Shown: positions 3,001 to 6,000 of the stretch, piece by piece | Layout of the letters: every line of letters starts with the position of its first letter | Position numbering within the stretch: the first letter of the stretch is position 1 | NCBI RefSeq assembly: GCF_048403405.1 | Contig: NZ_CP183129.1 | DNA: 64,000 nt | Strand: one strand, 5' to 3' | DNA from: Escherichia coli | GTDB lineage: Bacteria > Pseudomonadota > Gammaproteobacteria > Enterobacterales > Enterobacteriaceae | Program-made: the position numbers

Positions 3001-6000
3001 GTTATTGGCATTGGCGCAGGCAACGTCACTGACGGGCAAATTCTCGTGATGCACGACGCATTCGGCATTACCGGCGGTCATATTCCTAAATTCGCCAAAA
3101 ATTTCCTCGCCGAAACGGGCGACATCCGCGCGGCTGTGCGGCAGTATATGGCTGAAGTGGAGTCCGGCGTTTATCCGGGCGAAGAACACAGTTTCCATTA
3201 AGGAGTGACGTTGTGTTAATTATCGAAACCCTGCCGCTGCTGCGTCAGCAAATCCGCCGCCTGCGTATGGAAGGTAAGCGCGTGGCGCTGGTGCCCACCA
3301 TGGGTAACCTGCACGACGGCCATATGAAGCTGGTCGACGAAGCCAAAGCCCGCGCCGATGTGGTCGTCGTCAGTATTTTCGTTAACCCGATGCAGTTCGA
3401 CCGCCCGGAAGATCTGGCACGTTATCCACGGACCTTGCAAGAGGACTGCGAAAAGCTGAACAAGCGCAAAGTGGATTTAGTTTTCGCCCCTTCGGTAAAA
3501 GAGATCTACCCGAACGGTACAGAAACCCACACCTATGTTGATGTTCCCGGTCTTTCTACCATGCTGGAAGGTGCCAGCCGTCCGGGACATTTTCGCGGCG
3601 TTTCGACTATCGTCAGCAAGCTGTTCAATCTGGTCCAGCCGGACATCGCCTGCTTCGGTGAAAAAGATTTTCAGCAACTGGCGCTGATCCGCAAAATGGT
3701 TGCTGATATGGGCTTTGATATTGAGATTGTCGGTGTGCCAATTATGCGCGCCAAAGACGGTCTGGCGCTGAGTTCCCGTAACGGTTATCTGACGGCGGAA
3801 CAACGCAAAATTGCGCCTGGTCTGTACAAGGTTTTAAGTTCGATTGCCGACAAATTGCAGGCTGGCGAACGGGATCTCGATGAAATTATTACTATTGCCG
3901 GGCAAGAACTGAATGAAAAAGGCTTCCGCGCCGATGATATTCAGATTCGTGATGCCGACACCTTGCTGGAGGTCTCTGAAAACAGCAAACGTGCAGTGAT
4001 TCTGGTAGCCGCCTGGCTTGGCGATGCCCGCCTGATCGACAACAAAATAGTCGAGCTGGTGTAATACTTAACTGGCGCTACGGCTGATGGCGCCAGTTAT
4101 TCATTGCCACGTTATCTGTAAGCGATAATTCATAACGCAGACAACTTAGTTAGAGTTAATTAGCTTATCAACCTCTGTAAGAGATAAAGTTGCCATCTCT
4201 GCAACGTCTTCCCGAGACATTCCTTTACTCAGAAGACGCTGTGCCAGCCTTACCTTCCGGAGTCCCTCTTTATATCCCTTCTGAAATCCCTTCTGAAATC
4301 CCTTCTCTTCAAACCACTGCGCCAACGTCTGCCTGGTTTCTCTCCGTGTCTTTATTTCCATAGGTTCCCTTAATTATCTGGTCAGTTAACAATAACAATT
4401 ATCTGGCTATAACTGATGATGCAGACAACTTAGTTAATCAGCTTATCAATCTCGGCAAGGGGTAAATTTGCCATCTCTGCAACGTCTTCCCGAGACATTC
4501 CTTTACTCAGAAGACGCTGGGCGAATTCCTGACTTACTTCCTGTGTTACTTCCTGTATTACCTCTTGTCTTACCTCTTGTCTTACCTCCTGTCTTCCTTC
4601 CTGTCTTCCCCTCTCTTCAAACCACTGCGCCAGCGTCATCATAGACTTCCCTCCCGTTTCCCTGTCTCTCAGCACACCATAAAACAAATCCGCTTGTTCA
4701 GTATGACCGCGTTGCAGCATATAGTTTTGCATGGCAACTAACTGACTTCCGCTAGTGTACCCTTCGTCAATCAGCGTGACCAGTTGCTCCAGCAATAACA
4801 TTAAGTCGCGCTGGCGAATATGTTTTTGCAGTAGTTCGAGAATCGCAATCCGCCGATGTTGCATGATTTCGTCATCCGGTGTGATGGTGATATCCACCAG
4901 CGGGAAAGGGTTGTTGTAAACGCGTCGCGCCAGCTCCGGCGAGTAAAACATATCAAACCAGCACATTGAGAGCGGATAAGGTGTGGCCTCGCCCTGATAA
5001 AACAGAATCGGCACCACCAGCGGCAGCTTATCGTGATCCGCCTCCAGATGCCGGTGCATGGCAGCAATAGAATAACGCATCATGCGAAAGGCCATTTTCT
5101 TATCCGGCTTACTTTGGTGTTCAATCACCACATGCAAATAACCGGGATTACCCTGCATTTGTACGGAATAGAGTACGTCCGTGCTGTGCCCTTTCAGGCT
5201 TTCCTCAATAAAACTCCCCGACTCAAGATGCAGCGTGTCGAGGTCACACAGTTCGCGTAGCTCCGCTGGCAAATGGATATCCAGAAAGTCGCGAGCCGTT
5301 TCCGCATGCATTAAAAATTGTTTAAATACCGCATCATGCGGTGTGGTACTCGGTGCATCCATCTTCCCTGCCTTCCGTGTTGTCTTGCGTGAAGGCAGTA
5401 TCCAGTCAAGGCGCGCCGTCGTCAGCCGCCTCTTTAGTGTTTACCGAGCAGCGTTCAGAGAAATTTCAATTGGTTACAGGCGTTACATGGCACGCTTCGG
5501 CACGGTACGCAAACTGCTGATGCAAATGCCGTCAGATGAGTAGACACTAAACAAAAATCGGGCAATACTGCGTGAGAATTTCCTCAAAGCAGGCATCGCC
5601 TGCTTCGTTAACGACAGGGTAGAAAGGTAGAAGTTATGATTCGCACGATGCTGCAGGGCAAACTCCACCGCGTGAAAGTGACTCATGCGGACCTGCACTA
5701 TGAAGGTTCTTGCGCCATTGACCAGGATTTTCTTGACGCAGCTGGTATTCTCGAAAACGAAGCTATTGATATCTGGAATGTGACCAACGGCAAGCGTTTC
5801 TCCACCTATGCCATCGCGGCAGAACGCGGTTCGAGAATTATTTCCGTTAACGGTGCGGCGGCCCACTGCGCCAGCGTCGGCGATATTGTCATCATCGCCA
5901 GCTTCGTTACTATGCCAGATGAAGAAGCTCGCACCTGGCGACCCAACGTCGCCTATTTTGAAGGCGACAATGAAATGAAACGTACCGCGAAAGCCATTCC

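What the first reader, a model, noticed from the sequence alone, without database searches (positions are those of the whole stretch)
4530..4612. 12-nt tandem repeat in the rpnC linker, with a different 12-nt repeat in the small paralog
rpnC carries about seven tandem 12-nt units (CTTACCTCTTGT-like) encoding a 4-residue periodic linker RQEG/RQEV/RQEV/RQEV/IQEV/TQEV/SQEF. The small paralog has a different 12-nt repeat (CCCTTCTGAAAT, 4275..4310) at the equivalent place, encoding FQKG/FQKG/YKEG. The period is the same but the charge is opposite (Glu-rich versus Lys-rich). Such repeats slip easily, so copy number probably varies between strains; rpnC here is 310 codons against about 300 in K-12 from memory. 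The repeat sits just after the MMTLAQWFEE position where an internal RpnS start would lie, so length variation would change both the full protein and the internal product.
Basis: seen in the sequence. Interest (0 to 1): 0.5.

Follow-up and report, generated by a model that had tools for sequence, protein, structure and literature searches.

The report
Known variable repeat in RpnC antitoxin helix
The 12-base repeat is real and its copy number does vary between E. coli strains, but this repeat in rpnC, its internal small antitoxin and the extra downstream copy were already described and tested by Zhong et al. in 2023, so the finding is correct but not new.

Summary
Observation confirmed. Window 4523-4606 (minus strand) holds seven in-frame 12-nt units (RQEG RQEV RQEV RQEV IQEV TQEV SQEF) in the C-terminal tail of rpnC (4430-5362, 310 aa). 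The 71-aa ORF downstream (4146-4361) has its own array (FQKG FQKG YKEG). These are the only 12-nt tandem arrays in the 64 kb.

Across 24 E. coli loci fetched here, rpnC carries 2, 3, 4, 6, 7, 8 or 9 units. The small ORF carries FQKG x1, x2 or x3. Every change is a gain or loss of whole 12-nt units, often exact copies of a neighbouring unit. K-12 has 4 units (300 aa) and no small ORF. About 29% of complete E. coli genomes (1,555 of 5,426) carry the downstream copy.

An ATG-ATG with a strong GGGAGGG ribosome-binding site lies 10 codons upstream of the array region.

All of this is already in Zhong et al. 2023 (PNAS, PMC10400941): RpnS antitoxins made from internal starts, four-residue repeats whose number varies between strains, loss of neutralisation when one RpnC repeat is added to only one partner, and the downstream 'rpnCSs' copy. 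The repeat is part of a helix used for pairing, not a loose linker.

Verdict: real, correctly read, already known. Low interest.

The parts
4430..5362 (-). rpnC (yadD) coding sequence, 310 aa: the full-length toxic nuclease 'RpnC-L'
   Evidence: ORF. Pfam PF04754 (YhgA-like) covers residues 7-207, E 3.2e-87. TIGR01784 Rpn family scores 280 bits against a cut-off of 52. RefSeq annotates it as rpnC in an identical E. coli locus between panC and panD.
4742..5344 (-). N-terminal nuclease domain (Pfam PF04754, residues 7-207)
   Evidence: That the fold is PD-(D/E)xK rests on the literature (PMC10400941).
4430..4642 (-). In-frame internal ORF, 70 aa (MMTLAQWFEE...DKLIN): the small antitoxin RpnC-S
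   Evidence: Sequence. K-12 differs by one base in the start region. Translation of RpnCS in K-12 was shown by ribosome profiling and tagging (PMC10400941). It was not tested for this allele.
4649..4655 (-). Shine-Dalgarno GGGAGGG, 6 nt upstream of the internal ATG
   Evidence: Read from the sequence.
4523..4606 (-). Seven in-frame 12-nt units: RQEG RQEV RQEV RQEV IQEV TQEV SQEF
   Evidence: TRF, unit table, variation among alleles.
4146..4361 (-). 71-aa free-standing paralog of the rpnC tail ('rpnCSs' of Zhong et al.)
   Evidence: ORF. RefSeq annotates it as 'RpnC/YadD family protein' or hypothetical. It matches the C-terminal part of TIGR01784, E 2.7e-10. The duplication junction is present in 1,555 of 5,426 complete genomes.
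4251..4298 (-). The small ORF's own 12-nt array: FQKG FQKG YKEG LRKV. The first two units are identical in DNA.
4405..4637 (-). Copy 1 of the tandem duplication: rpnC tail plus about 25 nt past its stop (approximate ends)
   Evidence: Pairwise alignment.
4122..4329 (-). Copy 2 of the tandem duplication: small-ORF body plus about 25 nt past its stop (approximate ends)
   Evidence: Pairwise alignment. K-12 and strain 405 lack one copy.

Best explanation
**What it is.**
- The array is the hypervariable four-residue repeat of the Rpn toxin-antitoxin system.
- rpnC encodes a toxic DNA endonuclease (RpnC-L).
- Its last 70 codons are also translated on their own from an internal ATG, giving the small antitoxin RpnC-S.
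- The 12-nt units lie in the first, long helix of that small domain, which is the helix used for pairing between RpnS and RpnL.

**How it changes.**
- Units are gained or lost whole, by replication slippage or unequal recombination between identical neighbouring units. The reading frame is therefore always kept.
- The helix grows or shrinks by four residues per step.
- Toxin and antitoxin share the same DNA, so they change together.
- An antitoxin with a different unit number no longer neutralises the toxin, so unit number acts as a specificity code.

**The small ORF.**
- The 71-aa ORF downstream is a separate copy of the tail, made by a tandem duplication of the rpnC 3' end. It has its own array, which expands independently.
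- Recombination between the two copies can delete the spacer and fuse the rpnC body to the other tail.

**Shown here:** the arrays, their variation, the way they change, the duplication and the fusion alleles.
**Taken from the literature:** translation of RpnCS, antitoxin activity and repeat-number specificity.
**Inferred:** that these properties hold for this seven-unit allele.
For: **Identity.** PF04754 and TIGR01784 match, and the locus is syntenic with K-12 rpnC between panC and panD.

**Arrays.**

**Variation.**
- rpnC has 2, 3, 4, 6, 7, 8 or 9 units in 24 loci.
- CDS lengths are 873, 885, 891, 897, 903, 921, 933, 945 and 957 nt. Array changes account for multiples of 12 nt, and the rest comes from different C-terminal ends.

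**Mode of change.**
- The window has AGACAAGAGGTA x2 and L003 has x3.
- L018 to L007 differs by duplication of a 24-nt two-unit block.
- ATTGAGAAGGGA is x1 in L022 and x3 in L023.
- TTTCAGAAGGGA is x1, x2 and x3 in small ORFs.

**Speed.** rpnC bodies that differ at only 1-3 of 720 nt carry 9, 7 or 3 units (L007, L018, L012).

**Internal start.** A GGGAGGG Shine-Dalgarno sequence precedes the ATG.

**Fold.**
- In the single-sequence model, units 2-7 lie in one helix, residues 17-46.

**Fusion.** Strain 405 (L011) has the rpnC body joined to an array identical to the small-ORF array of L023 and a small-ORF-type C-terminus.

**Literature (PMC10400941).**
- RpnCS is detected in K-12.
- The repeats vary between strains in all E. 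coli RpnS and RpnSs proteins.
- Adding one KGIE unit to RpnCS or to RpnCLS alone abolishes neutralisation, and adding it to both restores it.
- rpnCSs lies downstream of rpnC in some strains.
Against: - No experiment was done on this allele.
- Structure confidence in the repeat region is only moderate: pLDDT is below 50 for residues 15-27 in the model made with the alignment and 61-71 in the single-sequence model.
- The Foldseek match to 7TH0 has a non-significant E-value of 1.3, rank 16, as is usual for a 46-residue domain.
- Sequence searches did not find 7TH0.
- The simple sigma-70 scan found no internal promoter. The internal transcript rests on published dRNA-seq for K-12.
- The mechanism of unit gain and loss is inferred from patterns, not observed.
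Confidence: 0.9

Rival explanations
1. The array is a neutral, slippage-prone, low-complexity linker. Copy number drifts because length does not matter, and it carries no specificity.
For: - All observed lengths from 2 to 9 units occur in intact genes.
- Model confidence in the repeat is only moderate.
- About 60% of an even-step sample of genomes share one class, 4 units, as expected if most variation simply follows lineage.
Against: - The published test on RpnC shows that a one-unit mismatch between RpnCS and RpnCL abolishes neutralisation and a matched extra unit restores it (PMC10400941).
- The insertion point lies in the dimer-interface helix of the RpnAS crystal structure (same paper).
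- The same four-residue periodic variation recurs in Rpn proteins of distant phyla (same paper), which is hard to explain by drift.
- Tails change much faster than bodies.
Confidence: 0.05
2. The array is a contingency locus of the phase-variation type, where slippage switches rpnC or RpnC-S expression on and off.
For: It is a short tandem repeat inside a defence-type gene, with exact adjacent copies that should slip.
Against: - The unit is 12 nt, a multiple of three.
- All 24 fetched alleles keep the frame and the downstream conserved RLLSKGMSRED motif.
- Slippage therefore changes length, not expression state.
- The only disrupted copies seen were due to IS insertion or to annotation of the small ORF as partial.
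Confidence: 0.02
3. Most of the diversity comes from recombination or gene conversion between rpnC and the downstream small copy (tail swapping), with slippage only a minor contributor.
For: - L011 carries the rpnC body with a small-ORF-type array and C-terminus.
- The L012 tail ends like the small ORF of L006.
- The C-terminal ends of the two genes form mosaics across strains.
- The paper notes such fusions.
Against: - Many differences are single exact-unit gains within one array, with identical flanks: WIN against L003, L004 against L005, L022 against L023, and the small ORFs of L005, WIN and L024. Tail swapping cannot produce these.
- Both processes are evident, so this complements the best explanation more than it competes with it.
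Confidence: 0.15

Closest known systems
Rpn toxin / intragenic RpnS antitoxin system, specifically E. coli RpnC-L/RpnC-S and the downstream RpnC-Ss (Zhong et al., PNAS 2023, PMC10400941)
   Same: - Same gene at the same chromosomal site (panC-panD).
- Same domain.
- Same internal start context; K-12 differs by one base.
- Same position for the four-residue repeats, 8-20 residues after the initiating Met.
- Same downstream small copy found in some strains.
   Different: - Only the allele differs: seven units of the RQEV type instead of the four units of K-12 (IEKG IQQG RQEV SQEF), and a downstream copy that K-12 lacks.
- No property of this particular allele has been tested.
RpnA-S crystal structure (PDB 7TH0)
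   Same: - A three-helix bundle with a long first helix.
- The better-modelled C-terminal 45 residues of the RpnC-S model superpose on 45 of 46 residues at 1.5 A.
   Different: - 20% sequence identity.
- Not found by sequence search.
- According to the paper, the repeat units are inserted within the first helix of RpnS (near H261 of RpnA-L). Seven inserted units would make the RpnC-S helix much longer.
TAEL repeats of the HsdS subunit of type I restriction enzymes EcoR124I and EcoR124II
   Same: A four-residue (12-nt) repeat in a helical spacer whose copy number (2 or 3) changes specificity. The Rpn authors cite it as the analogy.
   Different: There the length sets the spacing between two DNA half-sites. 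Here it is reported to set protein-protein pairing between toxin and antitoxin. The proteins are unrelated.
Simple-sequence contingency loci (phase-variable genes of Haemophilus and Neisseria)
   Same: Tandem short repeats within coding sequence that change by slippage and create population diversity.
   Different: Those units (1-5 nt, or otherwise not multiples of 3) shift the frame and switch genes on or off. This 12-nt unit always keeps the frame.

Membership tests
Rpn family (YhgA-like recombination-promoting nuclease) | N-terminal YhgA-like nuclease domain (Pfam PF04754) | tested here: met
   Residues 7-207, E 3.2e-87, covering model positions 1-201 of 203.
Rpn family (YhgA-like recombination-promoting nuclease) | Score above the curated cut-off of NCBIfam TIGR01784 | tested here: met
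   280.4 bits against a cut-off of 52.1.
RpnC ortholog (yadD) | Same chromosomal position as K-12 rpnC, between panC and panD, in opposite orientation | tested here: met
   The order panB-panC-(small ORF)-rpnC-panD-yadE in the identical strain, compared with the K-12 locus and alignment.
Rpn-L/Rpn-S gene-within-gene toxin-antitoxin | In-frame internal start with a ribosome-binding site ahead of the C-terminal tail | tested here: met
   ATG-ATG at 4642-4637 preceded by GGGAGGG at a 6-nt spacing. This is sequence-level evidence only.
Rpn-L/Rpn-S gene-within-gene toxin-antitoxin | The small product is actually translated and neutralises the long product | not testable with these tools
   Reported for K-12 RpnC (tagging, ribosome profiling, SOS reporter) in PMC10400941. 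Not tested for this allele.
Rpn-L/Rpn-S gene-within-gene toxin-antitoxin | Four-residue repeats starting 8-20 residues after the internal Met, with number varying among strains | tested here: met
   The array region starts at residue 11-13 of the 70-aa product. Unit number is 2-9 across 24 E. coli loci.
Rpn-L/Rpn-S gene-within-gene toxin-antitoxin | C-terminal domain folds as the RpnA-S three-helix bundle, with the repeats in the first helix | tested here: inconclusive
   - Match to 7TH0: TM 0.85 by target, rmsd 1.5 A over 45 columns, but E 1.3 and rank 16.
- The repeat region has pLDDT below 50 in the alignment-based model.
- In the single-sequence model it is a continuous helix, residues 17-46, at pLDDT 61-71.
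Free-standing RpnSs copy (rpnCSs) | A separate small gene immediately downstream of rpnC, homologous to the rpnC tail | tested here: met
   - The 71-aa ORF aligns with the rpnC tail.
- It matches the C-terminal 60 positions of TIGR01784, E 2.7e-10.
- The junction is present in 1,555 of 5,426 genomes.
DUF4351 (Pfam PF14261), the annotation of free-standing RpnS genes in some species | Pfam match to PF14261 in the tail | tested here: not met
   No PF14261 hit at E <= 10 in the scan of full-length RpnC. The 71-aa ORF was not scanned against Pfam on its own.
Phase-variable contingency locus | A change in repeat number shifts the frame or alters promoter spacing, giving on/off switching | tested here: not met
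   The unit is 12 nt, and every allele stays in frame with the downstream motif intact.

The most novel reading that the evidence does not exclude
**Reading.** The downstream small copy is not a spare antitoxin for the resident toxin. It is a stored alternative tail, a cassette.

**What fits this.**
- In all 11 sampled genomes that have both genes, the two mid-helix segments differ in length. Here they are 32 and 22 residues.
- The small copy usually also has a 2-residue deletion that shifts the helical register.
- In this strain its net charge is the opposite of the resident tail's (+6 against -2).
- By the published one-unit-mismatch result, it should therefore not neutralise the resident RpnC-L.
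- Fusion alleles such as strain 405 show that recombination can install the stored tail on the nuclease body, changing toxin and antitoxin specificity in one step.

**Alternative.** The basic small copy might pair with the acidic resident tail and modulate release of the toxin.

**Status.** The 2023 paper notes the fusions and the existence of the copy but assigns it no role.
Probability: 0.2. Interest if true: 0.5.

Novelty: already known. Interest (0 to 1): 0.15.

Why it matters
**Biology.** The repeat is a compact example of a length-coded specificity determinant. Whole 12-nt steps lengthen a pairing helix shared by a toxin and its intragenic antitoxin, so the two always change together. 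The authors who described it argue that this is driven by phage pressure.

**For this scan.** The practical value is calibration. A reader with no tools correctly predicted strain-to-strain variation and the link to the internal product.

**Still open.** The published work leaves three questions:
- how units are gained and lost;
- what selects for the variation;
- what the mismatched downstream copy does.

Tried and rejected
- **Census by match span.** I used a 331-nt query anchored on both sides of the array. It was only partly usable, because in genomes with the downstream copy the tool joined pieces from both genes into one place (spans 577-621). The unambiguous rows gave classes of -60, -48, -36, -12 and +12 nt. 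I did not turn this into exact frequencies.
- **Sequence search of solved structures.** Neither the RpnC-S sequence nor a profile of 17 tails found RpnA-S. The top hits were designed helical repeat proteins, which I take as composition-driven and discard.
- **Promoter scan.** No sigma-70-like site was found inside rpnC or ahead of the small ORF. The one terminator-like hairpin (4205-4189) lies inside the small ORF's coding sequence and is no more than the shuffles give.
- **Alignment-based AlphaFold model.** It was poor in the repeat region, probably because the alleles are gapped there. The single-sequence model was somewhat better.
- **Supplement of the 2023 paper.** It is not held as text, so I could not compare my unit range with theirs.
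- **Phase variation.** Considered and rejected, because all alleles are in frame.
- **Assembly artefact.** Considered and rejected. A complete genome is identical across 1,355 nt (strain TUM14771), and 81 genomes match the 331-nt array region at 99% or more.
- **Large protein-database searches.** Not run, because the verdict did not depend on them.
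Full report
**What is in the sequence**

The region lies between panC (3213-4064, + strand) and panD (5636-6016, + strand). It holds two minus-strand ORFs: a 310-aa ORF at 4430-5362 and a 71-aa ORF at 4146-4361.

Tandem Repeats Finder reports a period-12 array at 4526-4607 (6.8 copies, 87% matches) and another at 4274-4306 (2.8 copies, 100% matches). 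They are the only period-12 arrays in the 64-kb window.

Read in frame, the first array encodes RQEG RQEV RQEV RQEV IQEV TQEV SQEF (4523-4606). The second encodes FQKG FQKG YKEG (4263-4298), followed by a degenerate LRKV unit.

**Identity of the genes**

- The long ORF carries the YhgA-like domain PF04754 over residues 7-207, E 3.2e-87.
- It scores 280 bits on NCBIfam TIGR01784, the Rpn family model, against a cut-off of 52.
- A complete E. coli genome (strain TUM14771) is 100% identical over 1,355 nt. It annotates the locus as panB, panC, hypothetical protein, rpnC, panD, yadE.
- K-12 MG1655 has rpnC at the same site with a 903-nt CDS (300 aa) and no small ORF.
- The 10-codon difference comes from seven units against four (+12 aa) minus two residues at the extreme C-terminus.

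**The small ORF is a duplicated tail**

Aligning 4100-4400 with 4395-4700 shows near-identity from the LAQWFEE codons through the stop and about 25 nt beyond. The differences are the arrays and a 6-nt insertion near the end. A four-way alignment shows that K-12 and strain 405 lack one copy.

A query made of the part unique to the duplication (4312-4429) matches 1,555 of 5,426 complete E. coli genomes, always on the chromosome.

**Internal start**

On the coding strand the sequence is GGGAGGGAAGTCT-ATG-ATG-ACG. A strong Shine-Dalgarno sequence therefore lies six bases before the ATG at 4642. The resulting 70-aa product begins MMTLAQWFEE, and the array region follows at residue 11. K-12 differs at one base in this stretch.

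**Does copy number vary?**

Yes. I fetched 24 E. coli loci chosen at even steps down the hit list, plus a few divergent ones.

rpnC unit numbers between the conserved QWFEE-xG and A[QL]R[LF]L motifs:

| Units | Loci |
|---|---|
| 2 | L008, L024 |
| 3 | L011, L012 |
| 4 | K-12 and eleven others, one IS2-disrupted |
| 6 | L004, L006, L022 |
| 7 | this window with identical L001; L005, L018 |
| 8 | L003, L023 |
| 9 | L007 |

Two different sub-arrays expand:
- the RQEV type, as in this window;
- the IEKG type, which reaches five copies in L023.

The small ORF carries FQKG once (L005, L006, L007, L018), twice (this window, L003, L004) or three times (L024).

At DNA level the changes are whole 12-nt units, and they are often exact copies of a neighbour:
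- AGACAAGAGGTA is x2 here and x3 in L003.
- ATTGAGAAGGGA is x1 in L022 and x3 in L023.
- TTTCAGAAGGGA is x1, x2 and x3 in small ORFs.
- L007 differs from L018 by duplication of a 24-nt two-unit block.

No allele is out of frame.

The tails change much faster than the gene body. L007, L018 and L012 differ at only 1-3 of the first 720 nt of rpnC, yet carry 9, 7 and 3 units.

In an even-step sample of 60 genomes, the rows with an unambiguous span fall into discrete classes of -60, -48, -36, -12 and +12 nt relative to this window. The 4-unit class makes up roughly 60%. Only 81 of 5,424 genomes match this window's array region at 99% identity or more.

**Recombination between the two copies**

Strain 405 (L011) has the rpnC body fused to an array (AGGCAGGCGGTT AGACAGGAGGTA AGTCAGGAATTC) identical to the small-ORF array of L023. 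Its C-terminus (…LSLTEVDKLINSN) is identical to this window's small ORF. The L012 tail ends like the small ORF of L006. Both unit slippage and tail swapping therefore contribute to the diversity.

**Structure**

- An AlphaFold model built with 17 aligned tails had mean pLDDT 66.8, with residues 15-27 below 50.
- Its better-modelled C-terminal part superposes on 45 of the 46 residues of RpnA-S (PDB 7TH0) at 1.5 A, TM 0.85 normalised by target. The E-value is not significant for so small a domain (1.3, rank 16).
- A single-sequence model (mean pLDDT 74.3) places units 2-7 in one continuous helix, residues 17-46, with a break at the Gly of the first unit and pLDDT 61-71 in the repeat.
- This is consistent with, but does not prove, the published view that the repeats lengthen the first helix.
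- Sequence searches of the PDB did not find 7TH0.

**Comparison with what is known**

Zhong, Jiang, Hickman, Klier, Teodoro, Dyda, Laub and Storz (PNAS 2023, PMC10400941) report the following:
- RpnS proteins directly block the toxic RpnL nucleases.
- The RpnAS crystal structure is a dimer of three-helix bundles that pair through the long first helix.
- In all E. coli RpnS and RpnSs proteins, and in distant bacteria, the number of four-residue repeats in that helix varies widely among strains.
- Adding one repeat (KGIE) to RpnCS or to RpnCLS alone abolishes neutralisation, and adding it to both restores it.
- Some E. coli strains have a second copy, rpnCSs, downstream of rpnC. It arose from rpnC and can be lost by deletion or by fusion with the rpn N-terminal region.
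- How the 'dodecamer repeats' expand and contract is unknown.

A search for later work found only the accompanying commentary.

- The segment is part of a pairing helix rather than a linker.
- The charge contrast holds as a net value: -2 against +6 for the segments, and -5 against +5 for the whole small proteins. The rpnC units carry almost as much Arg as Glu.
- The two unit types share a register (x-Q/K/E-K/E-G/V) and occur together in K-12-like arrays. They are diverged versions of one array rather than unrelated repeats.

**What remains open**

- In all 11 sampled genomes that have both genes, the two mid-helix segments differ in length.
- Most small copies carry a further 2-residue deletion (RQEFAQ becomes RLAQ).
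- In this sample, rpnC arrays next to a small copy have 2 or 6-9 units, whereas loci without it have 3-4.
- By the published one-unit-mismatch result, the downstream copy should not neutralise its neighbour. Its role is therefore unexplained: a stored alternative tail, a modulator, or a remnant.
- This is an inference from a small sample that probably follows lineage. I rate it as a modest lead, not a finding.

**Verdict**

The feature is already known, so interest is low.

Noticed in passing
window 4146-4361 and 4430-4642; loci L003-L008, L018, L022-L024: In all 11 sampled genomes that carry both rpnC and the downstream small copy, the two mid-helix segments differ in length. rpnC arrays next to a small copy have 2 or 6-9 units, while loci without it have 3-4 units. 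The sample is small and probably follows lineage.
   Followed up: partly
window 4239-4250 (minus strand): Most small copies have a 6-nt deletion relative to the rpnC frame (RQEFAQ becomes RLAQ). It shifts the helical register by two residues. L008, L022 and L023 keep the undeleted form.
   Followed up: partly
L015 (strain CFSAN064036) 39-736; L021 (strain BH212) 1468-2576: IS elements sit at this locus in other strains: IS1 directly downstream of rpnC, and IS2 truncating rpnC to its C-terminal tail.
   Followed up: no
window 25666-26480 and 25556-25636: A 303-nt tandem repeat (2.7 copies, 80% matches) and a 33-nt repeat lie inside a 630-aa minus-strand ORF (24609-26501), which is downstream of an 887-aa ORF (26516-29179) on that strand. 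By size and order this looks like the three lipoyl domains of aceF downstream of aceE. That is a guess from ORF lengths only.
   Followed up: partly
window 22325-22598: A 96-nt tandem repeat (2.4-2.9 copies, 83-91% matches) lies inside a 617-aa plus-strand ORF (20936-22789). It encodes a 32-residue periodic segment.
   Followed up: no
L013 (strain Z1323CEC0010) rpnC 3' end: This allele ends in a different, longer C-terminus (…DKVITLLKDDKII), and no panC is annotated in the 374 nt of flank fetched on that side. This suggests a rearrangement at the rpnC 3' end.
   Followed up: no
window 4189-4205 (minus strand): A terminator-like hairpin (GTTGCAGAGATGGCAAC followed by a T-rich run) lies inside the small ORF's coding sequence. 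The count is no higher than in shuffled sequence.
   Followed up: no
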